Shown piece after piece: positions 21,964 to 47,941 of a stretch of DNA of 64,000 nt. The DNA comes from Bilabrum cf. latius (taxonomy: Eukaryota): contig OZ237742.1 in assembly GCA_965178125.1 (NCBI GenBank), positions 62,001-126,000 of the forward strand, written 5' to 3'. Under the pieces are notes generated by a model, which had not been told where the DNA came from, made no database searches, and was given only the letters and a program-made list of their open reading frames with translations. The translations under genes were made by a program, and so were the position numbers. Every line of letters begins with the position of its first letter. The stretch's first letter is position 1.

Positions 21964-22116
21964 TCAGGAAGACTTCTCAGCTGCAGCAGCTGCCGCGCCC
22001 TTCTTGGCGCCTCCCTTCTTGGCGCCTCCCTTCTTGGCTCCGGCGGCCTTCTTGGGCGCGGCCTCGGCCTTAGCCTTGCCCTTTCCTGCAGATGCCTTTC
22101 CTGACTTGCTTGGCAT
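21964..22116 (-). CDS. 50-aa Lys/Ala/Gly-rich basic protein, histone H1-tail-like, copy 1
   Basis: MPSKSGKASAGKGKAKAEAAPKKAAGAKKGGAKKGGAKKGAAAAAAEKSS-TGA, 14 Lys. CA-rich leader before the ATG. SNPs between copies inside the ORF are synonymous. Confidence 0.75.
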   Translation of the reverse strand: MPSKSGKASAGKGKAKAEAAPKKAAGAKKGGAKKGGAKKGAAAAAAEKSS

Positions 22117-23030
22117 GTCTGTGTGTGTTTGTGTTTGCGTTGGTGTGTGTGAGGATTGGGCCGGCGTGTCACGGAAAGGCCGTGTGACGGGAGGTTGTTC
22201 GTTTTCCGTGGCGAGCATGGAAGGTTCCATGTGGCCCAGCGAACCCGGAGCTCGCAGCGCCGCCGAGGCGCAGGCGGGGGCCAGGAGGCCGGGGAAGGCA
22301 GCATTGCGCGTGTGCGCAAGGGTTCATCGGGTCAGCCACATGCCTCGCCTTGGCCTTGCCTTGGCCTGGCTGGTGGTCTCTCGCCGCGTGGCCTGCAGCC
22401 AGTCCGTGGCTGAGATGAGGGCCGCAGGCAGCGAGGGAGGCGGAGCGGCTGTGCATGTGAGGATGCGAGGATATGCAGGGATGCGTCGAGGATCGGCTGC
22501 GGACATGCGGGGCAGCATGCATGGACCATGGGAATCTACGGTCCACTGCATGGATCCGTGCAGTGCCACAGTGGACGGCTGGAGGCCCGGTTGGCCGGTT
22601 TGTCATTGAATCTCGTCGGTGCGATTGATTTGTGCATGAATGGCGGTGCATGATCGCACGGACGAGCTGAGGGCCTCCCTGGCTAGATCTACGGCGATCA
22701 TACAGGGGTCCGAGCTCAGGGGTCGCGGAGGGCGGGGCTTGGTCGCAAGGACGGGTGTGGATGGATCTGATTGGAGATGTCGCGTGTTCGATGTGATCGC
22801 ATTGGAGAGAGCCACAATGCCATGGCATCACTGGTATTGTGTGTATCATGTAGCAACAGTACGTGTATGTATCAAGTCACAACAGACGCGCGCAACCAGC
22901 CACAGAAACAAGAGCAGCTCGGGTGTCGAAAGGCCGGCGATCCTGGCGTGGCTTCGCCGCTCGCATGGGCCCGCTCGACCTGTGCGATGTTCCATGTGTC
23001 GATGGCGCCTGTCCGCGTATCCATCTAGAC

Positions 23031-23183
23031 TCAGGAAGACTTCTCAGCCGCAGCAGCTGCCGCGCCCTTCTTGGCGCCTCCCTTCTTGGCTCCTCCCTTC
23101 TTGGCTCCGGCGGCCTTCTTGGGCGCGGCCTCGGCCTTAGCCTTGCCCTTTCCTGCAGATGCCTTTCCTGACTTGCTTGGCAT
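23031..23183 (-). CDS. 50-aa H1-like basic protein, copy 2
   Basis: Same protein as copy 1, with two synonymous changes (GCA>GCG, GGC>GGA). Confidence 0.75.
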   Translation of the reverse strand: MPSKSGKASAGKGKAKAEAAPKKAAGAKKGGAKKGGAKKGAAAAAAEKSS

Positions 23184-24097
23184 GTCTGTGTGTGTTTGTG
23201 TTTGCGTTGGTGTGTGTGAGGATTGGGCCGGCGTGTCACGGAAAGGCCGTGTGACGGGAGGTTGTTCGTTTTCCGTGGCGAGCATGGAAGGTTCCATGTG
23301 GCCCAGCGAACCCGGAGCTCGCAGCGCCGCCGAGGCGCAGGCGGGGGCCAGGAGGCCGGGGAAGGCAGCATTGCGCGTGTGCGCAAGGGTTCATCGGGTC
23401 AGCCACATGCCTCGCCTTGACCTTGCCTTGGCCTGGCTGGTGGTCTCTCGCCGCGTGGCCTGCAGCCAGTCCGTGGCTGAGATGAGGGCCGCAGGCAGCG
23501 AGGGAGGCGGAGCGGCTGTGCATGTGAGGATGCGAGGATATGCAGGGATGCGTCGAGGATCGGCTGCGGACATGCGGGGCAGCATGCATGGACCATGGGA
23601 ATCTACGGTCCACTGCATGGATCCGTGCAGTGCCACAGTGGACGGCTGGAGGCCCGGTTGGCCGATTTGTTATTGAATCTCGTCGGTGCGATTGATTTGT
23701 GCATGAATGGCGGTGCATGATCGCACGGATGAGCTGAGGGCCTCCCTGGCTAGATCTACGGCGATCATACAGGGGTCCGAGCTCAGGGGTCGCGGAGGGC
23801 GGGGCTTGGTCGCAAGGACGGGTGTGGATGGATCTGATTGGAGATGTCGCGTGTTCGATGAGATCGCATTGGAGAGAGCCACAATGCCATGGCATCACTG
23901 GTATTGTGTGTATCATGTAGCAACAGTACGTGTATGTATCAAGTCACAACAGACGCGCGCATCCAGCCACAGAAACAAGAGCAGCTCGGGTGTCGAAAGG
24001 CCGGCGATCCTGGCGTGGCTTCGCCGCTCGCATGGGCCCGCTCGACCTGTGCGATGTTCCATGTGTCGATGGCGCCTGTCCGCGTATCCATCTAGAC

Positions 24098-31185: not shown

Positions 31186-34100
31186 ATGCCCCACCGAAAG
31201 CGCGATGATGGATCAGGCGTAGTAAATCCATTTCAAGAAAGCGTGGCCGGAGAGACGGTTAGCAACGATGAGTTGAACGGCAAGCCAGCTGAAGGGTTTG
31301 AGGCTGTAGGGCTGGCCCCAGCTGCGCGGGACCGACAAAGCCAAATCGTTTTGATTTCGGTAAGATGGCGCAGTAGATGTGATTAATCCATAGCATTCTG
31401 TAGAATGTCGAGTTACTGTCATCGCTCAACTTCCAAATAGTAACCCCAAGCTTGCACGCAGAACGATGGATTACCTGGAGCCAAAGCAAACCAGTCTGTG
31501 ATGGGAGGGAATCGGAGGCCTATTGCTGCTTTATCAAGTGCAGATGCTCTTCCAACATTTACTGTCGGGGGTTCGGGCGTACTGGACGGTTCCGGGCTGC
31601 GGGATGCCGCAAGCATGGATTCCACCAACGGCAACGGCCCTTCCGGCGCTGCTCGGCCTGCATCGAATCGCGGGGGGTCAACAGGGTCCTCCCCGGGACG
31701 CATGGCTCGACAAGGGTCTCGCCGTGTGGCTCGGGACGCAATGCGTCTTGCGGAGGACGACTCGGCCGCAGCCGCGCAGGACTACTTTGCCGGTCAGGAC
31801 GCAGACTTGGCTGCCAGTGAGTAGGCGCAGCGCGCGGCTCTGCGAGCCATGCGCGGGGACCAGGACTAGGGTATTGTGGGTGTTAGTAGCAGCAGTGGCA
31901 CGAAGGAAGCACCTGGGGGCAAGCCTGAGAGGCGCTCTTTGTTCGTGAGCACGAGCACGCGGGGGGAGCCTGCCGGTGCACGACGAGGGGTGGAGGAGGC
32001 CCGCCGTGGGATGGTGACCCATGAGATGGGGCAGGGGCTCCAAGCCAACTCGCAGCAAACCCCTGTGGCACCAATGTCGTACGCCCCTCAGCTGATGGCC
32101 ACACCTACTGCCTCCCGCGCGACGAGCACTGGCGGCGCGCCACCAACGCCCCCCCGCTCCGAGTCTCGGCCTGCAGGCGGAGGTGCCGGGAGCAGTGCCA
32201 GCGATGCGCAGGTGCAGGATCCTCTGGTGCATGTGAGTGCCGAGCACGCCAAGCGGGCCCACGGCGATGCGCTCGACGGACTCTACGGAAAGCAGGGGGG
32301 TGAAACTGGTTCTGGGGACGAGGAAGAGGACCCTCGGTAGGCAGCAGAGGCCCAAATGAGGGCGGAGAGGCGGGCCCGGGAGGAAGCTAGGAGGGCGCGG
32401 GTGGCGCATGCCGTGGCCAGGTGGGATGCGAGATCGGTGCAGGAAGGGACTGGCCCGCGGGCGCAGCACGAGGCCAAGCTGAGGGACGAGAGGGCCGTGC
32501 AGCAGGCTGTGCGCATGGGCATGTCGGTGCGGTAGGCGAGGCGCAGGCAACACGAGGCGAGGGTGCGCGCGGAGAGGCAAGTGCGGGTCGCTTTGGGGCC
32601 TCACCGGCAGCAGGTGCGAGCTCTCTCCAAGCCCATGCGCACGACGGAGCCGCTGGGGTTGAAGCAGGGGCGGTCCCAACTGGGCGGAGACGAGGAGGAG
32701 CTGGACAACGGCATGGATCCCGCCGTGGTTGGGGTGCTCGATGCAGCGGGCAGGCGCGTGGCTAGGTCCATGCTGCGCCGGGAGCAGGCCATGCAGGCCT
32801 CGCGGCTGACCCTGCACACCTTCTCGTCTTCTCGACGAGCAGGTCCTGCGTCCGCCTCCGCGCCCACCCTGCCATCGATCGGGGGGAAGGGACGAGGCAG
32901 CAGCGGCGGGCGGGCCATGGTCATGGGCATGGCTCCTGCAGAGCGCCAGGCCGCCGAGGAGGTGGCCGCTGCGACCTACAGCTCCTCTCGCGCTGGCATG
33001 GCCGCGGATGGGCGGGGCCGGCGGGGGTCCGATCTCGATGGTGCACAGCAGGAGCTGCTAGGTGGGACGTTGGACGGCTCAGGCCCGTCCATCGAGCTTG
33101 CCGCGGGGATGAGAGCCAGAGCAGTGCGAGCGGCGGTGCGTGGGGACCGCGGGGCGCTGCGGTCGCTGCCCGGTGGTGCAGCCCTGGAGCGTGAGCTGGA
33201 CGCGGGCGGGCTGCTGCCGGCGGGTGACGAGAGCAGCAGCAGCGACATCGGCGGGTCGCGCGCAGCGAGGGTCGGGGCAGGGAAGCGCCACTGGGTGTCT
33301 GCCTCGATGCCGACTGGCCTCACGTTCGACCAGCAGATGGCCAGAGGGGCGGGCAAGGCCGCCAGCACTGCAAGGGCAGCTGCAGGCCCGCCCCCTCTGC
33401 CCAGGGGGAAGCCCAAGGGCACTCTTCCTGCGGGCCCTCGGCTGGCCACTTCCCGCAGGTTAGGGGACAGGGCCTATGCGGCTCAGTACGAGGCACGCAT
33501 GGGCCGCGGGGAGGACGCAGATGGGGCGCTCTTCGACTACCCAGCGGATGTGGCACGGCGGGTCCCTGTCAGTAGTCGGCTGATGCCGTATGCGAATCTA
33601 CGGAAGAAGCACCTCGTTAAGGGTCTGCGGAGCGACGGGGGGAGCGGAACAGGCGCCGCGCAGTTCGAGGAGGCGGGCAGCCCGGGGGGCCGAGACAGCC
33701 CCACTGCGGGCGTGGGTCCTGCGGTTGCGCGCCGTGGGCCGCTGCCACTCGACGGGAGGGACCGCGCACGGGTGTAGCGATGGGCTGAGGCCACAGCTTT
33801 AAGATCGGTGCGGCAGGGGCCAGAGGAAGACGTGCACGGGCAGGGGCAAGCAGTGGGCAGGGGCGAGAGCAAAGAGGGGCCCGGGGCCATGACGGGGCCG
33901 AGGCGGGGCTCCGCTGCTGGCAAGCCGCGCGCGGCTCCTGTTGTTCTCCGGCGACCCGACCCCCTGACCCCAGAGCGGAGGCAGCGGCAGGCGGCGGCCC
34001 GTCTGCTGGCCAGCCCCATGCGTCCGATGGACCCGAGGGACGCGCGGGGCGAGCTGCGTCTGTCCAAGTCGGCCGTGGTGGTGGGGCCGAGGTCCACGGG

Positions 34101-34308
34101 GAGGGGGGCGCTGGCACCCAGGATAGGGGCGGGGGCGAGCTCGCGCGGGGAGCCACGCAGAGGCAGAGGCAGGCGGGCGGCGGACGCGAGGGGGAAGCCA
34201 CCTCAGCGGGGGCTGGTGCCGACGCTGTCGATCGACAGCCTGTCCCAGGGGTCCGACTTCATGGTGGGGCCTTCGCTTGGAGGCACGTACTCGCGGCTGC
34301 GGAGCTGA
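31186..34308 (+). CDS. Hypothetical Ala/Gly/Arg-rich protein with a coiled-coil segment (~1000 aa)
   Basis: Track ORFs at 31498, 31876, 32563 and 33808 share one frame and are separated only by TAG. Inferred intron 31360..31461, ends TGA. Start uncertain. Confidence 0.6.
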
Positions 34309-34489
34309 GGATTATGTTGTATGTACATATCAAGTTTCTGTGTCTCTACATTGCGAGTGTGGAGATGTCTGTTCCGAGAGGGGTTCATGCAAGGCGCCGC
34401 GCAGACTTCCTTGTTCCGCAAGGATTGGATCGTCGAGTGTTCACCGCCGGTCACGGAAACTCGATCATTTCTTTCAAAACCCAGGTGCC

Positions 34490-35731
34490 ATGGCAGCCGT
34501 CGCAGACGACTACAGTGATGATGAATATGTAGAGCAGACTTTGTCCAGCCCGGAAGTTGTGACCAAGTACCGCGCAGCCAGCGACATTGTCCAGAACGCT
34601 CTCAAGGGGCTTCTCACCAAGATTGAGGCCGGTGCGAAAGTGTTCACCCTGTGCCAGCTGGGAGACACCCTGATTGATACACAGTGCGCTCAGACATACA
34701 AGAGCAAGAAAGTCGACAAGGGCGTGGCTTTCCCGACGTGCATCTCTGTGAACGAGGTGGTCTGCCACTTCTCCCCTTTCAGCGATAGCGATGCCGAAAT
34801 CAAGGCCGGCGATGTGGTTAAGGTTGACATGGGCGCGCACATTGATGGTTTCATTGCAGTTACCGCGCACACGGTGGTGGTGCCGGCATCTGGGGATGCA
34901 GCGGCGGCAGGCGGCGAGGGCTCTGCGCCTGCCGAAGTGGACGCGGAGGGCAAGGCCACTGGCCGCCTGGCTGACGTGCTGATGGCTGCCTCGCAGGCTG
35001 CTCAGATTGCGCAGCGCCTGATCAAGCCGGGCAACACAAACACGCAGGTCACGGAGGCGATCACGAAGGTGGCTGAGGCGTACGGCGTGACCGCGGTGCA
35101 GGGTGTGCTCATGCACCAGCTCAAGCAGTTCGTCATCGACGGGAACAAGGTCATCCTGTAGAGGCCCGACGCGGACAACAAGGTGGACGAGTGCACCTTC
35201 GAGGAGCACGAGGTGTACACGGTGGACGTGTGCATGAGCACAGGGGACGGCAAGCCCACCGAGGGGCACGAGCGGTGCACGGTCTTCAAGCGGGATGCAG
35301 CGGCCAAGTACAGGCTCACCATGAAGGCCTCCCGCTGGCTGCTCAACCAGGCACAGAGCAAGTTCGAGAGCATGCCCTTCGCCCTGCGCCAGCTCGGGGA
35401 CGAGAAGCAGGCCAAGCTCGGCTCCCGGGAGTGCATCGAGCACAAGCTGCTCGACTCGTACCCGGTGCTCACCGAGAAGCCCGGTGACGTGGTGGTGCAC
35501 TTCAAGTTCACGCTGCTGCTCACCAAGGGGGGCACCCTCAGGGTCACTGGGCAGCTGCCGGACCCCGCGTCCATGGTCAGCGATAAGGCCGACAAGCTGC
35601 CCGAGGACCTCAAGGCGCTCCTCGCCGAGCCAGAGTACCAGCCCAAGCCCAGGGCAAGGGGTAAGCGCAGCCGCAGGGGCGGAAAGAAGAAGGCCGAGGG
35701 TGCATCCGCTGGGGGCGCCGGCGGATCGTGA
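34490..35731 (+). CDS. PA2G4: Proliferation-associated protein 2G4 / EBP1 (M24 fold)
   Basis: VVTKYRAASDI, KGVAFPTCISVNEVVCHFSP, DMGAHIDGFIAVTAHT, HQLKQFVIDGNKVIL*RP. The single TAG at 35159 aligns with the Q in human KTIIQNP. Ends TGA. Confidence 0.95.
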
Positions 35732-35823
35732 GCCTGTGATGGGGATAGGTACACGGGGCGCACGAAGCGGATCGACAGGTCGCGTCACGGTGCGTGCTGA
35801 TGACTAAAACCGGAATTCGAGCA

Positions 35824-37456
35824 ATGGCGCAAATTTCACACTGGACACGGTATCCAGCTTGCTACATGTAGCGGCTCCCAGGTAAAATCAGTAGATTGTC
35901 ATTCAGTGGGTGCGGCTGGTTGGTCGGGTATCACCTGGGTAAGGGGCAGCGGCCAAGATTCGCTGCGGGCATCCAGGTTGTTTCAGAATTATCATTTGTC
36001 CGCACTTCATACTATATGGACAGACTAGGCCATGGCAACAAATTATCTTGTGAAAACTGCAGGTGCTTTCAATGAGCTTCTTCGCCAGGGAGCTTTGCAT
36101 ACAAACGTCGTTCTTGGAGGTACGTCCGGGGGCTCCATTTGCGCCTTTGCGCTAGCTATCGGCATTTCACCTCGAGACATGCTAGAGCAAACAAAGGAGA
36201 TGTCAGCAGTCGAGGCGAACAATACTTTCGGTCCGTGGTGGCGCGTAAACTCGTATGTTCGTAAGCGCTTGCTGTACTTGGCAGATAGCGTGTCTCCCCA
36301 GGCATTCGAGCGGGCATCTGGCCGGGCGTTCCTCTGCGTCGCAGAAACGCCTCTGTCATGCGGCGACGGGCATACGAAGCCAGAACGGTTGAGCTAGGGC
36401 CGCAGCGGCTAGTAGTCTTGGATGCCGGTCCGGAAGCGTCTAGTTTCGTCATTCCGCAGCAACGAGCACCTCGTCGATTGCGTCATTGCCTCTTCGCACA
36501 TCCCGCTGTACAGCGCTCCTCCCACCGAATTGCTGTACTGCCTGGATGGGCGCCTAGCTTTGGATGGGGGTGTCGTGGATCAGTGCCCAGACGTCCCAAG
36601 TCCAATGGACAGCCAGGGCAAGCGCGATGGTGAGGCAGTATTCGGCACTGAGGGCGCGCCCATGGCACCACTGGCGCGCGACCGGTCCGTGGCGGTGGGT
36701 GGAGTGCCCATGCCGGACCCCAGCTCGCCCGCTTGGGCGAATTTGCCCCGGGGAACACGGTCCACGGAGGAATCGGCTCGGTCGGGCATGCTGGGGCACC
36801 CCCTCGCGGAGGCAGTGGACCTGGCCCAGGCAAGGCTGGCGAGGGCGGCGGCGGTGGCGGCGCAGGGGGGCTTGCCGGTCCCTCTGGCGCTCGAGCACGG
36901 GGCTGCGGGGACACAACAGGCCGTAGAGGGAGTCAGTGCAAATGCAGACCCAGGGGCCGTGGCGCGGCAGGAAGGGACGGGCCGAGGAGGGGGCGGGGGC
37001 ACAGAGACGGAGACGGTCTGCCTCAACTCGTGGGGCTACACGGTGCCGCCGCACCCGCACCCCACAGAACCCCTGCCCCTTAAAGGGGACACGTCAGGCT
37101 CGGCACTTCCCCCCCGCCCTCACTCCAGGTACCTCTTCGAGGACCGCACCTACAAGGTGTCACCCATCGCAGACTCGTGGTTCTTCGGGACGCATGACGT
37201 CAGGCCGGAGCTGCCGCCCAGCAGGGCCGCACGGCTGGCCATGTGGACGTAGATGCTGGATCGTGCACTGCACCCGAGGGCGGACCCAGCAGCGATCGAG
37301 GCGCAGTTCCAGGCCGGCGCGTGGGATGCAGGGGAGTTCCTGCTCCGGTCTGAATCCAAGGAGCAGCTTGACGGCGACAGGGGCCCAATTGGGACAGAGG
37401 GTAGTGCTGCCAGCGATACTAGCAGTGTGAAGAAAACGTCGCAAAGCAGGAGTTAA
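35824..37456 (+). CDS. Patatin-like phospholipase (PNPLA/ATGL-like)
   Basis: LSFSGCGWLVGYHLG across intron 35939..36062, GTSGG nucleophile motif, ASSHIP, DGG. Ends TAA. Confidence 0.85.
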
Positions 37457-37521
37457 CCGGAACACATATATATCAGATCACAGCCAGAACGCATCGCTCC
37501 ATCCATTCGAAATGAGTCCCC

Positions 37522-38415
37522 TCAATCCGCCTTGTTGGGGCCCGACCCTCCCTCCACTGCCTTGGCTCGAGCCTCGATGGCCGCCAGCCGCCTCCTCCTC
37601 CTCTCGGCCATCACAGCAGCGTCCTATCCGGCCCCCCCCGCTGCACCTCCCGCAGCACCTGCAGACGCAGACCCCGCACCCTCCTTGCTGCTGGCAGAGG
37701 ACCCGCCGCCGCCAAACACGCTGCCAAGCATGCCACCGAGCATGCCACCATCAGCTACTGGTCTGCCGCTCGCGCCAGCGCCTCCCCCTGCCCCTCCTGC
37801 TCGCACCGGCTTGCCCGCGAAGGGGGATGGCCGGCCGCCGGGTGCACCCGATGAAGACCCGCGGCCCGAGCGGGGAACCATCGCTACGCCGCTGCTCGAT
37901 GATGTGGCGTGGAAGCGACTCCCGCCACTACCCCCGCTTGATCCGCCTCCACCTCCACCAACTGGAGCCTGCCCCATAGCATCATCGTCGGGCATCAGGC
38001 ATGAGAACATCTGGCCCAACGTGGCCATGCGATTGACCCATCCCGGCAAACTCCGGTTCAACAGTTTGCTCGCCAAAGCCTCTGCAAAATGATTGCAATT
38101 TTTCTTGTACAAGTTGTAAGTGCCATCTTGGAACGCATCACGCAGCGCGTCAATCACCCGGTCAACGTCGCTCGGGCCAAGTCTCGTGGAGCCAAGCACG
38201 ACTGTCTCCCGGAATGGTGCGTTAGGTACTTCCTTGGGTGCTGTGCTAAAAATGCCCCCGCCCGAGCCGAACGTCCACTCTTTCCCGTACACGACTAAGC
38301 CAGAGTGATAAAAGCCCAGCCCAAGCCCGTACAGGTACTCGTTCGATGGTGTTAGATCATACACATTCAACACAATGGGCTCCTAATGTCTCCTAGGGCC
38401 GAAACTCTCTCCCAT
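37522..38415 (-). CDS. DESI2: PPPDE/DeSI family deubiquitinase/desumoylase
   Basis: VLNVYDL, GFYHSGLVVYGKEWTFG, YNLYKKNCNHFA, PGWVNRMA. ATG at 38415, TGA at 37522, 2 TAG. Confidence 0.9.
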
Positions 38416-38698
38416 ACCAATCCTGAATCTGTACAGTCTGTGTGTAGGATGCGACGTCGCCAGAAATTTTTCCGGTTAGCCGGCGGATGATGGTGGGTGC
38501 GGCTTGCTTGTTGCTTGACAGACACCACCACAACGTAATGGCAGCCAATTAAATGCAAATGTTGCAGAGTCTCAATATCCCATTGGCATAGACTATATCT
38601 TGGCGGTAAACTCATAATTCATCCTGCTAGTGTCAACCAGTCAGCAACTCTGTGGTGGTGCTCAGTGAGGCGCCTCGAGCTGTGCTAGGAGCCCGCAA

Positions 38699-39931
38699 TC
38701 ACGCCAGCGGGGTCACCTTCCTGGATCCCGCCCCGCTCCTCTGCTGCAGGCTCTAGTCCTGCTTCCCGTCGAGCCGGATGCCATGGCCCTCCTCGTCCTT
38801 CCCCCCTCCCGCCCCTGACAAGCCCAGGGAGGCTAACACCTCGCTCCGGAACGCAGTATCCGCAATCGTGTACGAGTAAAAGGTCCCCTCATCCTCCATG
38901 CGCATGCGAAATAAGGTCAGCGCGTAGGCCATGGCCCCCTTGCACGCAAAGTCGAGCACGGCCTGCACGATGCTGAAGGCAGACGCGCCCACTAGGCCAG
39001 CCCCGGCGTCGCTCAGGATAAAGATGAGCGGGAAGAGGGGCCAGAACGCCAGGAATATGCTGGTCGCCGCGTAGAGCGGAGGGAGGGCGTCCTGCGGCAC
39101 CGTGGCGATGCGCTGACGGACTTGCGTGGTGATCCGCTCGAACAGGAACATTAGCAAGCAGCACCCTGTGGCAAAGAGGAGCCACTGCCGCGCGCCCCCG
39201 TCTGAAGATACAGTCATTGTCGCAATGATCAAAGATACTACGGTGGTTCCCACCAGCAGCGCCTTATTTTCCAGGCGAAGCGTTATCCCAAGGTCAAGGA
39301 TGATCTGCGTCGGCTAGCGATAAGTAAGGATGCGGGTTTCGAAAATACAACACGTAAAAAAGGAATTACCTGATCTACGTAGTACAGGGAATGGTTCTTC
39401 CATCCGTGGCTCCCGCGAGAGTGAAGAAGGAACGGATATGTCGCACACTACGCGGTGCAACTCACTAGCGGGCATGATATAATGTAATCAGCGAAGGGTA
39501 ACGACAGAATCACCTTAGTGTCTGTTAAGAACTCGAAGCCTCGCACAAGATTTCTGCATGAGCGGAGAGTAAAGCAGCGGAGGCCAATGTCAGTGTTGCA
39601 CATACAAAGCCAAGTACTCCACTGTAGCTTTCAAAACCGTCCAGCGGACACAAGCTTACGTGCAGCTTTGAAAAATGCAGTAAACGACACCTATGTTTCG
39701 GATATCGACCTCTGAACCGACTGGAGCTCGCTTTCCTGAATACCCCAACGTCAAGTTGTACCGGTACACAACGACAGCAGTCACTGCCAGCGCTGCCGCC
39801 ACAACAAACTCGAAAACGGCCTCTGCAATTCCCATGCGAGATAAGTCCAGAGCCAAGGCCACCCAGCGCTAAGGGGTGGATCTCTCGAGTCGTGCACCCG
39901 TTTTTTGTTGTTGCGAGCTGTTTTCCATCAT
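38699..39931 (-). CDS. Type-1 rhodopsin: bacteriorhodopsin-like cation channelrhodopsin (stramenopile KCR/BCCR family), ~321 aa
   Basis: Exons 39931..39660, 39553..39466, 39304..38699. Spliced TM3 is PFADYIISCPLIILDLGITL, TM6 IFLAFWPLFPLIFILS, TM7 VLDFACK (retinal Lys). YRYNLTLGYSGK follows TM1. The start could be 39835 instead. Confidence 0.9.
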
Positions 39932-39964
39932 GATCACCCCCGTGGTCACCGTGATGCTCGGCCT

Positions 39965-40016
39965 CCAGTCCAATCGTAACTGACTGTCACCAGTCCAATC
40001 GTAACTGACTGTCACC
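39965..40016. promoter_or_regulatory. Perfect 25-nt direct duplication containing CCAAT, in the divergent rhodopsin/7TM-RGS intergenic region
   Basis: ccagtccaatcgtaactgactgtca x2. The regulatory role is inferred from position only. Confidence 0.45.
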
Positions 40017-40159
40017 CGTGTAGTCTAAGTGATACGCATTCTGGCAAGCAGGTTTCAGTTCTCAACGGCTGTGATACTATCGAGGTTCCATATCTCGTCG
40101 AATCAAAAGCCCGAAACGACACATTGTGCAGAACTAACGGAACTCTTGCCTGTCGTAGG

Positions 40160-43100
40160 ATGGCAAGCAGAGCGGAGGCTGGCATAGCCTCCGTCTTTTT
40201 CTTACTGTTCTATGTCATCTTGGCTGGTGGTCTTGTTCTTTTCAGCCTTCGGCGCTAGTTCCTGCCACTGTCACCGAGGTCAACAACAGCAATCGTGGTA
40301 GGCAACTTGTTGATTGCCCTTACTTGCACGCTGGGGCTGGTGCAAGTAATATTTGGAGCAGATGCATTGCCATGCCAGGCAGTGTTGGTCATGTATTACG
40401 TCTGCTTCCCTGTTGCATGTGAGGAAAGTAGATACGAATATCAGGACATTTTTTTGCATCCACGATCAGTCTACGTGGTGAGCAAACCGCGCAAGTATTG
40501 AAGCTTCCCTCGCAGGTGCTATACTCTTAGTAAGAATGGGGCGAATCTCCGCAATTACTGCGATTCAGACTACTTTGGTAAGCATGTCTGGCGGTGGAGG
40601 AGACACGGAGCAGGACAGCAGCGAAGGTGACGATGAGATCTGGAACGATGGCAGCGACGAAACAATCGGCGCGTCATCGTCATCAGCAGTCGACCATCGT
40701 CAGAATGGCCAGGCGCCACCAGCTGCCACCGCCGCGGACAAGCCCAAGTTCGCCAAGAGCACTCGAGGGCTCACCGCCCGGGCCAGGGCCCAGCAACAGC
40801 AGCCGGTGCATCCAGAAGGGGAGGCCATGGGCCTGCCGGAGGAAGGTGAAGAAGACGATAGTACCCAGGATGAATTGTCAGGCTTCGATGCCGCGGCAGA
40901 CGAGCAGCGGCAGCAGGCCGGGCTCGCTCGCCTGGCCTGGCTGCGGCTCGCCACCTCCCCCGCGCTGCTGACCGTGGTCATCCTCGCCATCGCGGCGGTG
41001 TGGGCTGCCCTGGGGGCCGCCAGAGCCGCGGCTGCCGACGGAGACTCGCTCGTCACACCAACTGGAGGCTGCGCCGTGGGGGCCACCGACGTGTGGACGG
41101 TGACGGGGGCGTCCCTGGCCCTGTACGTGCCCCTGGGGCTGGCTGCCCTGTGGGCCACGGGGGAGCTGACGGACGTGTTCTCCATCCGATTCGAGTTCAT
41201 GTGGTCGGGGGCGGGGCTACTGCTGGCCCTGGCCGTGCACGTGGCCATCGCGTACGCCTACTCCGGGTACGGAGACGGCGGGGGCGGGGCCCAGGGATAT
41301 GGCACGGCTGCCCACGCGCTGGTGGGCGGCGGGTATGTCTACCTCGTGCTGAGCCTGTGGGTGCCGGTGGCACTCAGCTTCTCGGCCTCCTTCGCAGCGA
41401 CCAACCGCGCCATCGAGCAGAGGGCGCTTGCGGAGGGGGCCCGCGCGGGGGGTGAGCAGAGGTCGGTCTTCCACTCGGCCCGTATCAAGGCCATGGCAGC
41501 CGGCGAGGGCGATGATGGGATGCTGCCGCTGCCCATGCCCGGCGGGAAGCGCTCCTCCGAGGGTGCGGGGGCCCCTCGGCGCATCTCTGCGTATGAGGCC
41601 GTCAGCGCCGCCCTGGATACATACCAGCGCATCCGGCGCTCCTTCCACCTGAGCCACATCACGCAGACGGTGGGCCCCGACCAGCTCCTTGCGCTGTGCA
41701 GGGAGTTGGCCGAGCAGGCCAGAGCGGGGAAGCTGCTTAGGACGGGCGGTGATGGGGCGGGTCCGACGCCCGAGAAGGGATCCGTGGAGGTGGATGGTCC
41801 CAGCGAGCTGGGGGCCAGCATGGTGATGCATTCGGGCTCCAGGCGCTCGCACACAACGAACGGCAGCACGGGGTCTAGCTTCGAGGTGGGCGCGGGGATG
41901 GCCGGGTCTCGAGTGGAGCAGGCGGGCAGTGGGTCATTCGTGGGCCACACCATCCTTGCCGAGGCAGAGGCATCCTCGATGCTGGCGGGGCTGGCCGGTG
42001 CCATGACGGGCAGGCGAGGAGTGCTGCAGCTGGCGCAGGCGAGGTGCCCCGCCTCTCTCGAAGCGTCCACTCTGGCCGACCTGCTATCGCACCGCCCGCT
42101 GTACACGCGGTTCCGGGACTACCTCAAGTCCGAGTTCAGCACGGAGAACCTGCTGTTCTTCGAGCAAGCCACCGTGTTGGAGATCGGGCTGGTGGAGAGG
42201 CTGGTGCAGCGGGGGCTGGTCTGGGGCCCTGGTGACACAGAGCCCCGCGCGAGGACGGAGGCATACTTTGTGGCTGTCACAGGAGAGGAGGGGAAGGAGA
42301 AGGAGAAGGGGGGCAGCACACAGATTGCGGGCGGTGCAGCGGCAGCGGCGACTGAGGGCAAGGGCGGCAGCGGCAAAGGGAACGGGGCGAGGCCACTGCG
42401 CCGCAGCCTCACCTCAGGGGAGCTCAAGGCCGTCGAGCTGCTCCCTGCTGACCAAGCAGTGGAGGGCGAGGAGGATGGGGTTGGGGATGGGGATGGAGGC
42501 AAGGACAAGGATGAGCTACAACGAGAGTTTGACGAGAGCATGGCCGAGGCCAAGGCCCGCCGGCACTCCGTGAACGACAAGCTGCTGGGCTCGCAGGGCG
42601 GACTAGGGTCTAGGAGCAGTCGACTGGAGGTGGAGGAGCTGGATGAATCGCAGGAAGCAGGCGACACCAAGGGGGGCTCCAAGACGAAGGGGCTGGTGGA
42701 TCGGATGGACACTGACGAGGAGGCGCTGCAGGCCCTGCGCAAGGCGAGCCGAGCCGACGCGCGGGGCAGCCCAGCCGGGTTGGCCGATGGTGGTGCCCGC
42801 CAAGGTGCCATGTCCCTGCGGCACATGAAAGGCATCCCGGCGGACCTGCGCCTCATGCTGGGGGGCATCACGCACGTCGCGCAGAGGGGTGTGCGGGCCA
42901 TGTTCAGTTCTCTGCTGAGGAGCATGAAGCAAGCCGCGGCGAGGGGCTGGCTGGCCCCCGAGGGCCAGGACCTGGAGCAGGCCAAGCGCGAGGTCGCCGA
43001 GTACCTGACAGGGGGCACGAGGGCCGTCACGGAGCGCTTCGTGAAGCCCGGTTCTCCTCTGGAGGTGAACATCTCGTCGTCGCAGAGGAGGGCCGTGCTC

Positions 43101-43334
43101 CGGGCCATGAAGAAGGGCAGCCCGGGGCCAGGCGTGCTGGTGCCTGCCAAGCGCGAGATCAGGAGACTCATGCAGATGGACTCGCTCCCCCGATTCCGCG
43201 CCCAGGCCCAGCAGGGTATCTTCTTCAAAAAGTACCAAAGGAAGTTTCAGGCCATGGTAGGCAAGCTCGAGAATGACGCGGAGGAGCGCAAGCGGAAGAA
43301 ATAGCGGCAGGAAGGCTCGAAGGCTGGGTCCTGA
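40160..43334 (+). CDS. 7TM-RGS protein (multi-pass membrane domain fused to a regulator of G-protein signalling domain)
   Basis: Exon 40160..40418, intron 40419..40515. TM helices with RRQFLPLSPRS, LPC, DVFSIRFEF. RGS halves FRDYLKSEFSTENLLFFE and FVKPGSPLEVNISS..REIRRLMQMDSLPRF. Ends TGA 43334. Confidence 0.88.
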
Positions 43335-43850: not shown

Positions 43851-46800
43851 ATGGCATCAAAGATTCAGAGCAGGTGAGCTTTAAGATATAACATGGAATG
43901 CCCTCGTTGCCTTGAATCGTCAAATCACTGCCTGGATTGGGCCTGCTGGCATCCGAAGCTCGAGATCCGGCCACCGCGACATGTCCTGGGCGGCCAGAAC
44001 TGCCACCCGTTTGCGCTTGACCCTGGGGATACGACGATGCTAGCTTGTGTATTTTTTTGTTGCGCGTCTATTTTACACCGCAGCCCAGTGATGAGCTCTG
44101 TTGAGGCAGGGAGTAGCCACAAGTCGCCAGGCTCGCTCGGAATGTCCGAGTCCTTGGGGTGGGAGGCCCAGGGCGCCTTCGAGCACCCTGTTGAAGACCT
44201 TCCTGATCGCACTTCAAAGAGCAGCTCGCATTCCAAGCAAGCTGGCTCCACTAAATGGAGAGCATTTGCCAAAATGGGAGACCATTTCGAGGCGGGACGC
44301 CGCTTGGACAATGCAAGGTGAGTGGCGCATCCACCATTCGGAGGGGCGAGAACACTTGCTGGCTGCGATACGAATTGCGAGATACACCATCCATCGATCG
44401 CGCCATTGCTTGAATGCACTTTTGAAGTTTATGGTTGTGCCTGGAAATCCGTCGAAAAGTCCAGGACAGGGATCAGTGGCCTCGTACGAACACCGGTCGG
44501 CTTAAGCGGCCACGTGGACCAATGAAGGAGCCTCAGAGCGTCAATGAGGCGCTGACCACACTTTTAAAATCCTCAACCAGCCTAACTTACAAATATCGCA
44601 GCTGGAGGCTGTGGTCGATTGCGAACCGCGCATCCGCATCTGCGAGATCCAGGTCGTCTTCCTCTCGGGCGAAGGCAGGCCCAGAGGCGGCACACGCAGC
44701 GGTGCGAAGGCTGCAGCGCGCCCTTTCGTTCTCTGTCGACTTTGGACCGGCTCCATCATCCGGCTCCGCACGCTCGCTGGGCCTGGCTGGGCACCTGGAC
44801 GGGCGTGCAGTGGCCGCCAGTGGGGGCCTGCAGAGCCACCTGCTGGACGCCGGTGAGCAGCTGCCGGGGCCAGGGCTGCAGGGGAAGAAAAGACCCGGGG
44901 CTGTCACCGAGGGCAGTGGGCGCACGGCCGCAGCGGCCCAGCGGCGGGCCGTGGATGTGGCCCTCCTGCGGGCCGGGCTGGGCTCCATGCTGCCGGTCAA
45001 GGGGGCCCGGTCCGCAGCCCGCATGACCACCCGTGCGATCCGAGCTGCGGGGGCCACTGCACGAGCTGCGGGGGGCGGTCATCGTGCCCGAGCCGCCGGG
45101 AAGGCAATGGGCGCGCTTGGCCTCGGGCTAGGAGTCCCCTCGAGCAGCGGTCCCTCGGTGGGTCTGCTCGCTCCTGTGAGGGAGGTGCCCGAGCACGGGC
45201 ACGGGCACGGGGCGGCCGCTGGTGGGGCCGGGGAGGGAGAGGGGGGCAGGGAAAAGACGATGGAGGAGCTGGAGGTGATTCAGCAAAGGGATGATGCTGG
45301 GGGAGACCATAGGGCATCGCATGGTGGTGCTCGTGCCGGCAGTCGGGTGGCTGTGGGCGTCAAGACTACATCTGCTGCCCGCACCAAGAGCAGACACACG
45401 GGCATGGCCGAAGAAGAGGAAGAAGAAGCCAAGGACGATGCGGTGACAGCTGATGGCGTCTCTGCGGCGGAGGGCAAGACCGTGTCCAGCACCAGCGACG
45501 CAGACGTGGACGCAGACGAGGAGGACGGAGAGGAGGACGAAGACGCTGACTCGGCGGTGGACACAGAGGAGCGGTTCTGCTCCAAGCTGCACGCCCTCTG
45601 GAACTCGTACGAGCTGCCCCCCGCGGCGCTGACAGACCTCCTCTCAGCCCTGCAGTCGCACCCTGACATGGACACGGACGAGCTGCCTGCCACCGCGGCC
45701 CAGCTGGAGCGTCGAGTGGCCCTCCGGCAGGCCCAGAGCAGGCCCAGGTGCGCTGCCTTCGGGCACTCTTTGGAGCGCAACGGTGCCAACAACTTCCTGC
45801 TGTACCTCGTGCGCTCGTTGATGCGAGACGGCCAGGAGTTCGAGCTGTTTTCTCCCAAGGAGGGTCCGATGCGGGGCGACTTCGAGGCCATGGGGGTGCC
45901 CGTGCACGTGGTGGACACCGCGGCGGTAGGGTACATGGACGGCCTCAGGGACATGCTGCGGCGGGCCAAGGCCAGCGGCCGGTTCGGGTGCTGCTTTGCC
46001 AACACCATCATGCGGGCCGAGGTGGTGGCCGTGTGCAAGGAGCTGGGGCTGCCCTCGGCGTGGACCATCCACGAGGCCTGGCCCCGCGACCAGATCGACT
46101 CCTACGCCAAGAAGGTGTTCCTGGTATCCAACATCGACTCGGGTGTGATCCGCGAGGGATTCAAGGCTGCCCCCATGATCATCTTCCCGGCCAAAGTGCA
46201 GCAGGCCCTGTACAGCGGGCTGTTCAACCCGGGCTGCGCCAGGGTGGTCTACAACGGCATACCGATGCGCTCCATCGACACATTCAGGGCATCGCAGGAC
46301 AGAGATGCAGTCAGGAGGGCGCTGGGGTACGGCCGTGACGACTTTTTGGTGCTGCACCTGGGCACTGTGTGCAAGCGCAAGGCACAGGACGTCAGCCTCC
46401 GGGCCTTCCACCAACTGGTCAAGACCCGGAAACAGGCTCTGGAGGCGGGCGCAGACCCCACAGGGCCATGGTCAAGGGAGCCCAAGCTGCTCATGGTCGG
46501 TGCTCGGTACATCCGGCAGCACGAGATCGACTTTTAGGCAGAGCTGAGGGGGTACATCAAGGAGCACGCCGCCGATTTGGAGGGGCGCGTGACGATCATG
46601 GACATTCAGAAGGAGGTGCTCAGGTTCTACCACGCGGCCGATGCCGTGCTGGTGCCCAGCCGGAACGAGGTGCTGCCACTTGTGATCTGCGAGGCCATGG
46701 CATTCCAGCGGCCCGTGGTTTGCAGCCGCATCGACGGGATCCCCGAGGCGGTTACGCACGACGAGGACGGCCTGCTGGTGGAGCCGGACGACGTCAAGGG

Positions 46801-47941
46801 CCTGTCGGAGTCGATCGTGCGGCTGTTCGAGAGCCCGGCTCTGCGGTCCCGACTGGGTCAGAACGGGAGGGCGAGGGTGCTTCGGCAGTTCTCGTACTCT
46901 GTGATGAGCAAGCAGTACAGAGAGCTCGTCGATCAGGTCACATTCGAGATGAACAGGGACAGGGAGCAGGAGCCCGTCTCCACCATGACCGCGCCTAGCC
47001 CCCTGCAGCCAATGCAGCAGCAGCGGGCGATCGATGTGGTTGCCGAGGGGGGCGAGTGCAAGACCGCCGAGGGGGTCAGATCCGCCACCGCAACGGCCTC
47101 CCTCGCAGGCCCGGACCCGGCGGCCCCCGACTCACCCGCATCCACCTTGGGGAAGCAGGCCCCTGTCACGGGCGGGAGCAGGAAGGCTTGCATTCCCAAG
47201 GTGGCCAGCGGGGTGTCTGTCGGACAGGTGTCTCTGGGGGGGCAGGCCCCTGGGGGAGCCTCCGGGATCGGATCGGGGGCCTCCTCAGGCGCAGGGAAGA
47301 GCAGCATCCTGCCTGGCGGCGATGCTGAGAAGAGTACGGTGGCCGTGCGCCGCCCGGCTCCACGGGCCCCCTTGCCCGCCGCTCGCCAGCCAGTTGTTCT
47401 GGTTGACATGGACAGCACCATAGTGGACTTTGACGGCTCCTTCCTCAAGCGATGGCTGCCCAGGCATCCCGGGGATGAAACCCTCGTGCGCTCCCGCAGG
47501 CACTACGAGCTGGAGAGGAACTTTCCCATCGAGCTCAGGGAGGAGGTGACCAGGACCATCGCGGCCCCAGGTCTGTACATCGCCATGGAGCCCATCGAGG
47601 GAGCGCTGGACACGCTGCAGGACATGCTGGAGCACGGCCTGGACGTGAGGCTCGTGACATCACCGCACCCCAGCTGCTACGCCGCCTGTGCAGCGGAGAA
47701 GTTCCAATGGGTGAGCGATCACCTGGGTGACGAGTGGTGCGCCCGGCTGGTCATCGCCAGAGACAAGACGCACGTCCGAGGCAGGTGGCTCATCGACGAC
47801 AAGCCCAAGATCACTGGCAGCAGCGACCCCGCCTGGGAGCACGTGATCTTCGCCCAGCCGTGGAACGACGAGGTAGATGCAGAAGGCCGCAGCCGGATGA
47901 GGCGGTGGAGCGACTGGCGCAAGGTGCTCCGGATCAAGTGA
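43851..47941 (+). CDS. Fusion protein: DUF1752-like motif, GT4 glycosyltransferase and HAD 5'(3')-deoxyribonucleotidase-like (NT5C) domain (~1198 aa)
   Basis: Introns 43874..44083 and 44318..44601. Spliced GRRLDNASWRLWS. GT4 motifs HSLERNGAN, VVYNGIP, PSRNEVLPLVICEAMA (E-x7-E). HAD motifs VLVDMDSTIVDFD and LIDDKP. One TAG at 46535, ends TGA. Confidence 0.85.

What the first reader, a model, noticed from the sequence alone, without database searches (positions are those of the whole stretch)
38699..39931. Hidden channelrhodopsin of the kalium/bacteriorhodopsin-like (KCR/BCCR) family
Seen: three exons and two TAG codons hide a 7-TM opsin that is not visible as a single ORF. The spliced protein has YRYNLTLGYSGK, RGFEFL, DYIISCPLIILDLGITLRLENK, GCC, FWPLFPLIFILS and LDFACK..LTLFRMRMED. 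From memory these track Hyphochytrium HcKCR1 block for block: YRLDLGMGYSCK, KSFDFF, DYVFTCPLLILDFAFTLDLPHK, GCC, FWPMFPILFIFS and LDLTCK..MTVFRLELEE. Inference: a divergent light-gated cation channel in a heterotrophic flagellate. Standard-code annotation would probably mis-model it, so it is a candidate new optogenetic tool.
Basis: partly seen in the sequence, partly recalled or inferred. Interest (0 to 1): 0.85.

Follow-up and report, generated by a model that had tools for sequence, protein, structure and literature searches.

The report
Spliced Cafeteria-type rhodopsin, not a KCR
A real, expressed three-exon gene encodes a light-sensing rhodopsin from the same broad family as the potassium channelrhodopsins, but it lacks their potassium filter, and its nearest tested relative showed no channel current.

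Summary
A minus-strand gene runs from 39931 to 38699 with introns 39659..39554 and 39465..39305. Contigs from three runs (two studies) join the exons at exactly these borders. The spliced product is a microbial rhodopsin. Exon 3 hits Pfam Bac_rhodopsin at 7.8e-10. Its best solved relatives are HcKCR2, HcCCR and HcKCR1 at about 1e-17, against 1e-6 for archaeal pumps.

TAG is a sense codon here and most likely encodes Gln. It pairs with CAG or CAA in 12 of 21 aligned codon pairs against a syntenic ortholog.

In the tree the protein sits outside the HcCCR/CovKCR clade. It falls in a sister clade of eight rows (SH-aLRT 99), next to CabR1 of Cafeteria burkhardae. Three of the five KCR signature positions are non-conservative: N99 to L, W102 to P, Y222 to S (PMC9733931, PMC9765531). 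CabR1 gave no channel current in HEK cells.

My reading is a retinal photoreceptor, most likely a non-K+-selective cation channel, possibly a non-channel sensor. It is a new member of a known family. Side leads are a UAG=Gln code and a conserved head-to-head membrane RGS gene.

The parts
39660..39931 (-). Exon 1, taking ATG 39931 as the start; it ends in a split codon (phase 2). It encodes the N-terminus, TM1 and most of TM2.
   Evidence: Sequence read. Spliced contigs cover 39660..39866, 39660..39828 and 39660..39743. Aligns to TM1-TM2 of the family.
39833..39835 (-). Alternative start codon (Met33). It gives a 289-aa protein whose TM1 starts after 3 residues.
   Evidence: In frame (translation). 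The upstream 32 residues add no family score. P0002, P0004 and P0005 have short N-termini. The start is not resolved.
39869..39871 (-). First in-frame TAG. It is codon 21 if ATG 39931 is used; otherwise it lies in the 5' UTR.
   Evidence: No transcript contig reaches it; the furthest stops at 39866.
39554..39659 (-). Intron 1, 106 nt, GT..AG.
   Evidence: Joint 39553|39660 in one contig each of X5, X6 and X7.
39466..39553 (-). Exon 2, 88 nt. It encodes the end of TM2, the B-C loop and the first half of TM3, including Pro110, Asp113, Ser117 and Cys118.
39305..39465 (-). Intron 2, 161 nt, GT..AG, phase 0 after ..CPL.
   Evidence: Joint 39304|39466 in X5, X6 and X7. The ortholog L001 has an 87-nt GT..AG intron at the same place.
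38699..39304 (-). Exon 3. It encodes the second half of TM3 (Asp124), TM4-TM7 (Asp238, retinal Lys242), the conserved post-TM7 motif and the C-terminal tail, and ends with the TGA stop at 38701-38699.
   Evidence: Pfam Bac_rhodopsin 7.8e-10. PDB HcKCR2 1.2e-17. Residue map.
38753..38755 (-). Second in-frame TAG, read as sense (Gln), in the C-terminal tail.
   Evidence: It aligns with CAA in L001, and the ..SRKVTP.. end motif after it is kept in frame in L001 and P0001.
38553..38698 (-). 3' UTR, at least as far as the transcript contigs reach.
   Evidence: The X6 contig runs to 38553, X7 to 38583 and X5 to 38669.

Best explanation
The locus is an expressed three-exon nuclear gene for a retinal-binding microbial rhodopsin. 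The protein has 321 aa from ATG 39931, or 289 aa from ATG 39835. [quoted passage not shown] Within that family it sits in a distinct clade with CabR1 of Cafeteria burkhardae.

Shown here: splicing, transcription, family and clade placement, reading of TAG as a sense codon, and conservation as an ortholog in a related species.

Inferred mechanism: all-trans retinal on Lys242 is held by the counterions Asp113 and Asp238. Light isomerises it and opens a cation path between helices 1, 2, 3 and 7. I expect this path to carry H+ and/or Na+ without preference for K+, because the aromatic K+ filter is absent. The current would depolarise the cell and steer photobehaviour.
For: Splicing and transcription:
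- Spliced contigs in 3 of 4 laid runs (two studies) join the exons exactly.

Family and clade:
- Exon 3 hits Pfam Bac_rhodopsin at 7.8e-10.
- PDB phmmer gives HcKCR2 1.2e-17, HcCCR 5.4e-17, HcKCR1 2.1e-16, a chain titled BlCHR2 7.3e-11, archaerhodopsin-3 1.1e-6 and ChRmine 1.5e-4.
- A scan of 1.84 billion representatives gave 32 hits at E<=1e-3. Every named one looked up is a eukaryotic opsin of this family: HcCCR, two Colponema KCRs, a Rhodomonas cluster and Pigoraptor.
- Family HMM scores are 179.6 bits for the whole protein, 133.3 for exon 3 and 32.3 for exons 1+2.
- The careful tree puts the window in a 100/98 clade of six rows, sister (83/85) to HcCCR+CovKCR1/2. With CabR1 added, an eight-row clade has SH-aLRT 99 and the window is sister (94) to CabR1+P0003+P0044+P0008.

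Functional residues:
- Kept: D113, S117, C118, D124, D238, K242 and the TM6 FWPLFP block.
- The position of bacteriorhodopsin Arg82 holds Pro, as reported for GtCCR1 and GtCCR2 (PMC9765531 discussion passage).
- A DSD variant of the TM3 motif is listed among stramenopile CCRs (PMC9733931 section 8 passage).

Purifying selection:
- Against ortholog L001, 198 aligned exon-3 codons split into 57 identical, 96 that differ only synonymously and 45 non-synonymous. Most non-synonymous changes are in the tail.

Against K+ selectivity:
- The signature D87, N99, W102, D116, Y222 reads E, L, P, D, S here, and supporting W210 reads D.
- N99L, W102Q and Y222A each nearly abolish selectivity in HcKCR1 (PMC9733931 section 7).
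- Homologs of both W102 and Y222 are required (PMC9765531 section 8).
Against: - No function was measured.
- CabR1, the nearest characterised relative (33% identity over 237 aa), gave no passive photocurrent in HEK293 cells. Four other family members gave none either (PMC9765531 section 8). Channel activity cannot be assumed for this clade.
- The sister relation to the KCR/HcCCR clade has only moderate support (83/85; 82).
- No pump or sensory rhodopsin was in the tree as an outgroup. The distance from pumps rests on E-values.
- Alignment of the B-C loop is uncertain because the window is 3 residues shorter there. No Trp occurs anywhere in the 14 residues before D113.
- The start codon is unresolved.
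- No full-length structure model was made.
- X5, X6 and X7 are only guessed to be RNA, and X6 is flagged 'probably DNA'.
Confidence: 0.5

Rival explanations
1. It is a non-channel photoreceptor like CabR1. Light drives only an intramolecular proton transfer, and the signal passes to partner proteins through the cytoplasmic face. A candidate contact is the clade-specific motif just after TM7. The conserved divergently transcribed membrane RGS protein could be part of the pathway.
For: - The window is sister to the CabR1 group (SH-aLRT 94).
- CabR1 currents decayed in about 15 ms and were nearly voltage-independent (PMC9765531 section 8).
- The post-TM7 block ME[DT]xG..YxY is kept in the clade alignment: R133, E137, G140, Y143 and Y145 of exon 3 are invariant in 10 of 10 rows of A2. 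It is absent from HcCCR and CovKCR1/2.
- The head-to-head RGS neighbour is kept in the window and in L002. These are 2 of the 2 loci where the upstream DNA is available.
Against: - Failure in HEK cells may reflect poor folding or trafficking of CabR1.
- Identity to CabR1 is only 33%.
- Most tested family members are channels.
- No microbial rhodopsin is known to me to signal through G-protein regulators (own knowledge).
- Two loci are too few to show linkage.
Confidence: 0.3
2. It is a kalium channelrhodopsin, a K+-selective light-gated channel, as the finding's title suggests.
For: - Its best solved relatives are HcKCR2 and HcKCR1.
- D116 is kept, and D87 is conservatively Glu.
Against: - N99, W102 and Y222 are replaced by L, P and S, and W210 by D.
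- Both W102 and Y222 homologs are required, and mgCCR4 and mgCCR2, which each keep only one, are not K+-selective.
- The protein lies outside the clade that holds HcCCR and CovKCR1/2.
Confidence: 0.05
3. It is an outward proton pump of the bacteriorhodopsin type.
For: - The TM3 motif D-S-D resembles DTD.
- Archaeal pumps are found at E about 1e-6.
- CabR1 shows an outward-directed transient.
Against: - The Arg82 position holds Pro.
- The match to HcKCR/HcCCR is 11 orders of magnitude better than to pumps.
- The whole clade sits inside a channel family.
Confidence: 0.08
4. It is a decaying or non-functional gene copy.
For: - Unusual substitutions at pore positions.
- A B-C loop 3 residues shorter than in HcCCR.
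Against: - It is transcribed and correctly spliced.
- The frame is open and all retinal-pocket key residues are kept.
- The ortholog in L001 is under purifying selection: 96 synonymous-only against 45 non-synonymous codon differences.
Confidence: 0.03

Closest known systems
CabR1 / CbuChR1 (KAA0157615.1, Cafeteria burkhardae BVI; here P0055)
   Same: - Same well-supported clade (SH-aLRT 99), with the window sister to its group (94).
- 33% identity over 237 aa, E 1e-43.
- Shared IGVVYC and RGF blocks in TM2, the LP in the B-C loop, ADY/ADF, a Cys at the TM3 position, D/D/K, and the post-TM7 motif.
   Different: - CabR1 has Asp three residues before the TM3 counterion where the window has Pro.
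- It has His where the window has Gln234.
- Its B-C loop is 3 residues longer.
- No in-frame TAG.
- The NCBI gene model is 272 aa.
HcKCR1, HcKCR2 and HcCCR (Hyphochytrium catenoides; PDB 8gi8, 8h87, 8gi9 and others)
   Same: - Best solved-structure relatives, E 1e-16 to 1e-17 over TM3-TM7.
- Same TM3 carboxylates, Cys110, D229, K233 and the FWPLFP block.
   Different: - 29% identity to HcCCR.
- Sister clade, not the same clade.
- N99L, W102P, Y222S, W210D, H225Q, T109S and Y81N relative to the HcKCR positions.
- Has a post-TM7 motif that they lack.
CovKCR1 and CovKCR2 (Colponema vietnamica; here P0010 and P0006)
   Same: Same family; 30-33% identity.
   Different: They keep N99, W102, Y222 and W210 and are K+-selective. 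The window keeps none of these four.
Cryptophyte BCCRs GtCCR1 and GtCCR2
   Same: Pro at the bacteriorhodopsin Arg82 position (PMC9765531 discussion passage), and a DTD-like TM3 motif.
   Different: GtCCR2 is much more distant by sequence (1.6e-6). The cryptophyte-like rows P0023 and P0026 fall outside the 19-row group in the careful tree.

Membership tests
Microbial (type 1) rhodopsin | Bac_rhodopsin fold signature | tested here: met
   Pfam PF01036 at 7.8e-10, 39 bits against a cutoff of 24.6, for exon 3.
Microbial (type 1) rhodopsin | Schiff-base lysine in TM7 and its aspartate counterions | tested here: met
   K242 aligns with K233 of HcCCR, D238 with D229 and D113 with D105.
Microbial (type 1) rhodopsin | Seven transmembrane helices | tested here: met
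   The protein aligns end to end with full-length family members across TM1-TM7. Hydropathy peaks appear for six helices; TM2 is polar and falls below the threshold, which I recall is usual for channelrhodopsins. No 3D model was made.
[quoted passage not shown] | Phylogenetic placement inside the family | tested here: met
   Careful tree: a 19-row group (93/92) with HcCCR, CovKCR1/2 and probable mgCCR4. Within it, a clade of six at 100/98, and eight rows at SH-aLRT 99 once CabR1 is added. No pump outgroup was included.
[quoted passage not shown] | TM3 motif with both carboxylates (DTD or the variants DSD, DSE, ETD, DLD) | tested here: met
   D113-S117-D124, i.e. DSD. The variants are listed in a PMC9733931 section 8 passage.
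[quoted passage not shown] | A non-Arg residue at the bacteriorhodopsin Arg82 position | tested here: met
   Pro110. Lys, Pro, Glu or Trp are reported at this position in relatives.
[quoted passage not shown] | Light-gated passive cation conductance | not testable with these tools
   This needs patch clamp. CabR1 in the same clade failed the test.
Kalium channelrhodopsins (KCR) | Signature quintet D87, N99, W102, D116, Y222 (Y or F at 222) | tested here: not met
   The window reads E, L, P, D, S. The signature comes from PMC9733931 section 7.
Kalium channelrhodopsins (KCR) | TM2 positions L69 and I73 | tested here: inconclusive
   The window has I80 and Y84 at these positions. F69L and S73I raise K+ selectivity in HcCCR. 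The effect of Ile and Tyr is unknown.
Kalium channelrhodopsins (KCR) | Placement in the clade of proven KCRs | tested here: not met
   It falls in the sister clade to HcCCR+CovKCR1/2. HcKCR1/2, WiChR and B1ChR2 themselves were not in my tree.
Kalium channelrhodopsins (KCR) | Measured PK/PNa well above 1 | not testable with these tools
   Electrophysiology is needed.
Bacteriorhodopsin-type proton pumps | Arg82 together with the DTD motif | tested here: not met
   Pro at the Arg82 position. Pumps score 1e-6 against 1e-17 for HcKCR2.

The most novel reading that the evidence does not exclude
The CabR1-like clade (the window, L001, L002/P0003, P0044, P0008, CabR1, P0002, P0004, P0005) is a functionally separate class of eukaryotic rhodopsin and not a channel. 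In this reading it is a photosensor that signals through its conserved post-TM7 cytoplasmic motif to a G-protein pathway. The conserved, divergently transcribed multi-pass membrane RGS gene would be its partner, sharing a bidirectional promoter. That would be the first link between a type 1 rhodopsin and RGS/G-protein signalling. It occurs in a lineage that also reads UAG, and only UAG, as glutamine.
Probability: 0.12. Interest if true: 0.8.

Novelty: new member of a known kind. Interest (0 to 1): 0.45.

Why it matters
The family is the source of the potassium channelrhodopsins used to silence neurons, so each divergent member is a natural experiment on ion selectivity. This one combines Pro at the W102/Arg82 position, Ser at Y222, Leu at N99 and Asp at W210. 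Testing it would show what the pore does without the aromatic filter. It would also show whether the Cafeteria-type clade conducts at all.

As a ready optogenetic tool it is a weak candidate. It matters more for annotation. Introns plus UAG=Gln make opsins of this lineage invisible or truncated in standard gene calls: the ortholog L001 carries five TAGs inside helices 4-7. Channelrhodopsin catalogues probably under-sample such organisms.

The conserved opsin-RGS gene pair and the UAG-only reassignment are separate leads worth following.

Tried and rejected
- Whole genome: none is held for this window.
- Exons 1 and 2 alone against the PDB: 0 hits each at E<=10. Exons 1 and 2 alone against Pfam: 0 families. 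Both pieces are too short. The family HMM settled their homology.
- Word-index homolog search with exon 3: 1 hit only, P0001.
- Profile search with alignment A1: 3 hits among 7999 scored candidates, all already known.
- tRNA scan for a CUA-anticodon tRNA: 0 genes in the window.
- Reading the TAG residue from a GT1-domain alignment to PDB chains: the TAG falls in a variable stretch and tells nothing about the residue. The ortholog comparison replaced this.
- Run listing: no RNA holder is listed on record.
- Transcript contigs do not reach ATG 39931 or the first TAG, so the start stays open.
- Literature searches for a UAG-only nuclear code in stramenopiles or a channelrhodopsin with reassigned stops found nothing relevant. 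These cover only the held library.
- Searches for later work on CabR1 or the family found only the papers cited here.
A fold of exon 3 alone was judged to add nothing beyond.
- Complex prediction was not used. I do not claim that the opsin binds the RGS protein.
- Supplementary files (ChR alignments and catalogues of PMC9733931, PMC9765531 and the HulaCCR1 preprint) were not seen. They may already list this clade or close relatives.
Full report
1. THE OBSERVATION

The gene model.
- Exon 1 is 39931..39660.
- A GT..AG intron lies at 39659..39554.
- Exon 2 is 39553..39466.
- A GT..AG intron lies at 39465..39305.
- Exon 3 is 39304..38699, ending in TGA at 38701-38699.

The joined frame has 321 sense codons and no TAA or TGA. 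It has two in-frame TAGs, at 39871-39869 (codon 21) and at 38755-38753. All the peptide blocks quoted in the finding are present.

Splicing. I laid four public runs on 38300-40400.
- X1 covers the stretch in one unspliced piece with no differences. It may be the source DNA.
- X5, X6 and X7 (studies P2 and P3) each hold one contig that joins 39304 to 39466 and 39553 to 39660. There are no other letters, and on the + strand the skipped parts begin CT and end AC, which is GT..AG on the gene's strand.
- These runs leave the introns and the intergenic DNA uncovered and give separate contigs for the neighbouring genes. That is the pattern of cDNA.
- The run type is only guessed, and X6 is flagged 'probably DNA'.
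- The contigs reach 39866 at the 5' end at most, and 38553 at the 3' end.

Homology of each exon.
- Exon 3 alone hits Pfam Bac_rhodopsin at 7.8e-10.
- In the PDB, exon 3 hits HcKCR2 at 1.2e-17, HcCCR at 5.4e-17 and HcKCR1 at 2.1e-16. Archaerhodopsin-3 scores 1.1e-6, GtCCR2 1.6e-6 and ChRmine 1.5e-4.
- Exons 1 and 2 are too short to score alone: 0 hits, and 0 Pfam families.
- A family HMM built from 13 relatives without the window scores the spliced protein at 179.6 bits, exon 3 at 133.3 and exons 1+2 at 32.3. The best of 200 shuffles of exons 1+2 scored 8.1 bits.
- Only one opsin gene lies in the window (tblastn).

2. THE TAG CODONS AND THE GENETIC CODE

Evidence within the window.
- Dropping TAG from the stop set lengthens the longest frames from 940, 733 and 703 codons to 2032, 1618 and 1473. 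Dropping TAA as well changes them little.
- Three frames carry Pfam domains on both sides of in-frame TAGs: GT28 N and C domains; WD40 and a RING; GT4/GT1 and NT5C. One TAG lies inside the GT1 domain.
- By my count TAGs and, by construction, no TAA or TGA lie between the outermost domains. TAG makes up only 33% of stop triplets in the window.

Evidence from an ortholog.
- A metagenome locus, L001, carries the orthologous opsin exon 3: 85% identity in the best tblastn segment and 75% over 196 codons aligned to the end of the tail.
- L001 carries the same four downstream genes in the same order.
- Across the five gene pairs, 21 aligned codon pairs have TAG on at least one side. The partner is CAG or CAA in 12 and TAG in 1. 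The other 8 partners are V (2), T, S, A, G, W and E.
- By my count of the rows, all 7 pairs whose four neighbours are identical have a Gln codon as partner.
- TAG is therefore a sense codon in this lineage, most likely Gln.

Consequences for the opsin.
- In L001 five TAGs lie inside exon 3. Four sit where the window has Gln, including the TM7 residue Gln234.
- The window's second TAG aligns with CAA in L001, and the end motif ..SRKVTP.. after it is kept in frame in L001 and in the 96% identical fragment P0001. It is coding.
- The first TAG may not be coding. No transcript contig reaches it. The 32 residues before Met33 add nothing to the family score. P0002, P0004 and P0005 start 2-8 residues before TM1.
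- CabR1 and L002 have about 15 residues before TM1, so I leave the start open.
- Either way, in this gene the introns hide the opsin and the TAGs do not.

3. WHAT IT IS

Relatives found.
- An exhaustive HMMER scan of 1.84 billion representatives with exon 3 found 32 proteins at E<=1e-3.
- Beyond P0001 the best are 30-40% identical and unnamed: P0002, P0003, P0004 and P0005.
- Named ones are HcCCR (P0007) and two Colponema vietnamica proteins (P0010 = GILI01001652, P0006 = GILI01010992). PMC9765531 section 8 names these CovKCR1 and CovKCR2.
- Also named are a cluster with a Rhodomonas abbreviata protein (P0023) and a Pigoraptor protein (P0018).
- P0009 is probably mgCCR4. It has 483 aa, Trp at 102 and Ile at 222. 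This is my inference.
- A last word-index search with P0034 reached the Cafeteria proteins. P0055 is KAA0157615.1, which is the protein called CabR1 in PMC9765531 and CbuChR1 in PMC9733931.

Trees.
- The careful maximum-likelihood tree has 25 rows and 332 columns. It puts the window in a clade with P0003, P0008, P0002, P0004 and P0005 (ultrafast bootstrap 100, SH-aLRT 98). That clade is sister, at 83/85, to HcCCR+P0015+CovKCR1/2+P0011.
- With CabR1 and P0044 added (quick tree, 26 rows), the clade has eight rows (99). The window is sister (94) to CabR1+P0003+P0044+P0008.
- Rows left out of the trees are the short fragments P0001, P0012, P0016, P0020, P0021, P0024, P0027, P0028 and the duplicate cluster members. 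P0029 was also dropped from the second tree because of its long branch.
- No pump or sensory rhodopsin was available as an outgroup.

Identities. Full-length blastp identity is 35% to P0002, 33% to CabR1 and 29% to HcCCR.

4. RESIDUES

Numbering runs from Met1 at 39931.
- Kept: D105 = D113, C110 = C118, D116 = D124, D229 = D238, K233 = K242, F88 = F, and the TM6 block FWPLFP.
- Conservative: D87 = E98, T109 = S117 (so the TM3 motif reads DSD), L69 = I80.
- Changed: N99 = L107, W102 = P110, Y222 = S231, W210 = D, H225 = Q234, I73 = Y84, Y81 = N, S70 = G.

The B-C loop is three residues shorter than in HcCCR, so the column for N99 shifts between alignments. Two facts do not depend on the alignment: Pro110 lies three residues before the counterion, and there is no Trp in the 14 residues before D113.

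What the papers say about these positions:
- PMC9733931 (section 7 read) defines the KCR signature as D87, N99, W102, D116 and Y222, supported by S70, F88, D105 and W210. It reports near-complete loss of K+ selectivity in N99L, W102Q and Y222A.
- PMC9765531 (sections 6 and 8 read) shows that homologs of both W102 and Y222 are needed.
- The same paper reports Pro at the Arg82 position in GtCCR1 and GtCCR2 (discussion passage).
- A PMC9733931 section 8 passage lists DSD among the TM3 variants of stramenopile CCRs.

The protein is therefore a family member that fails the KCR membership test.

5. HOW IT MOST LIKELY WORKS

Shown:
- The gene is transcribed and spliced.
- It is conserved under purifying selection. 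Against L001, 198 aligned exon-3 codons are 57 identical, 96 different only synonymously and 45 non-synonymous.
- It retains the retinal lysine, both counterions and the TM3 carboxylates.

Inferred:
- It is a light-gated cation path of the BCCR type. I expect it to carry H+ and/or Na+ without K+ preference and to be used for photobehaviour.

Doubts:
- CabR1, the nearest tested relative, gave only a transient of about 15 ms that was nearly voltage-independent. The authors read this as intramolecular proton transfer.
- Four other homologs gave no current, and mgCCR1-3 conduct mainly protons.
- My odds are about 0.5 for a non-K+-selective channel, 0.3 for a non-channel sensor, 0.08 for a pump, 0.05 for a KCR and 0.03 for a dead gene.

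6. TWO FEATURES OF THE CLADE NOT SEEN IN THE KCR CLADE

Post-TM7 motif.
- A conserved block lies directly after TM7: ..R.xMEDxGxFYxYT.. in the window, P0002, P0004 and P0005. The CabR1 group has a one-residue-shorter form.
- R133, E137, G140, Y143 and Y145 of exon 3 are invariant in 10 of 10 rows of alignment A2.
- HcCCR and CovKCR1/2 lack the block.

Neighbouring RGS gene.
- The gene upstream of the opsin, on the other strand, encodes a multi-pass membrane protein with an RGS domain. Its frame is 40482-43334, and its transcript contigs start at 39980 in all three spliced runs.
- In L002, the locus of P0003/P0034 from a different organism (71% G+C; tblastn best segment 35% identical to the window's exon 3; P0003/P0034 39-40%), the same arrangement recurs. 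An 889-codon minus-strand frame at 2160-4826 holds an RGS domain (Pfam 1.7e-7), and the opsin ATG is at 5502 on the plus strand.
- The two halves of the RGS domain match colinearly: 534-593 to 508-568 and 844-917 to 806-881, E about 1e-6 each.
- Both proteins have hydrophobic segments before residue 310, and these end in a shared ..ALSFSA..TN.. stretch.
- The downstream PPPDE gene is not conserved in L002.
- L001 lacks the upstream DNA. The pair is therefore seen in 2 of the 2 loci that can show it, which is a lead and not a finding.

7. NOVELTY

- The family, the CabR1 lineage within it, DSD motifs and Pro at the Arg82 position are all in print.
- This protein is a new, divergent member: at most 35% identity to any full-length relative found, and at most 40% over exon 3 apart from its own orthologs.
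- I found no paper on this clade beyond the CabR1 recording.
- I found none on a UAG-only nuclear code in a stramenopile. These searches cover only the held library, and I could not see the supplements and channelrhodopsin catalogues.
- The organism was not identified. 'Stramenopile' and 'heterotrophic flagellate' rest only on the opsin's nearest named relative.

8. VERDICT

It is a new member of a known kind, of moderate interest.

Noticed in passing
whole window; locus L001 1-6086: TAG is a sense codon, most likely Gln, while TAA and TGA stay stops. Long domain-bearing frames hold 8-14 in-frame TAGs. In 21 TAG-containing codon pairs against the syntenic ortholog L001 the partner is CAG or CAA in 12. 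UAG-only reassignment is rare in nuclear genomes, and my searches found none reported for a stramenopile. The organism is unidentified.
   Followed up: yes
window 39980-43334 (+); L002 2160-4826 (-) next to the opsin ATG at 5502 (+): A multi-pass membrane protein with a split RGS domain is transcribed divergently from the opsin. This holds both in the window and in the distant relative L002. It may be a conserved bidirectional gene pair.
   Followed up: partly
window 38840-38900 (-), just after TM7; alignment A2: There is a clade-specific cytoplasmic motif, ME[DT]xG..YxY[TS]. Five of its columns are invariant in 10 of 10 rows. It is absent from HcCCR and CovKCR1/2.
   Followed up: partly
L002 about 5500-6650; proteins P0003, P0008, P0044, P0045: Gene calls of the Cafeteria-like relatives carry an extra stretch between ..YVAM and FFGMWP that the NCBI model of CabR1 lacks. 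It looks like an unspliced intron in TM6 that the window gene does not have. The intron after CP[LM] in TM3 seems shared by the window, L001 and L002.
   Followed up: partly
window 31444-39487 and L001: Five genes (the opsin, a PPPDE peptidase and three others) are colinear between the window and L001, at 57-76% protein identity. G+C is 62% in the window and 55% in L001.
   Followed up: partly
window 39960-40015: A direct tandem duplication of about 25 nt (gtgacagtcagttacgattggactg) lies between the opsin and the RGS gene. Contigs of X5, X6 and X7 all begin at 39980 inside it, and X5 has adapter letters there.
   Followed up: no
window 21704-22606 and 22771-23673 (+): Two 301-codon frames have identical codon counts and a TAG at the same codon. 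This is probably a tandem duplication of about 1.07 kb.
   Followed up: no
window 44426-47938 (+): One 1171-codon frame joins GT4/GT1 glycosyltransferase domains to an NT5C 5'-nucleotidase domain, with a TAG inside the GT1 domain.
   Followed up: no
window 1951-6804 (+), C-terminal part: A GT28-type glycosyltransferase frame ends in about a dozen near-identical copies of an 11-residue unit, SPSASSQGKAK.
   Followed up: no
window 55070-57268 (+): A 733-codon glycoside hydrolase family 3 frame has no TAG and the highest third-position G+C in the window (0.88). Its codon usage differs from its neighbours.
   Followed up: no
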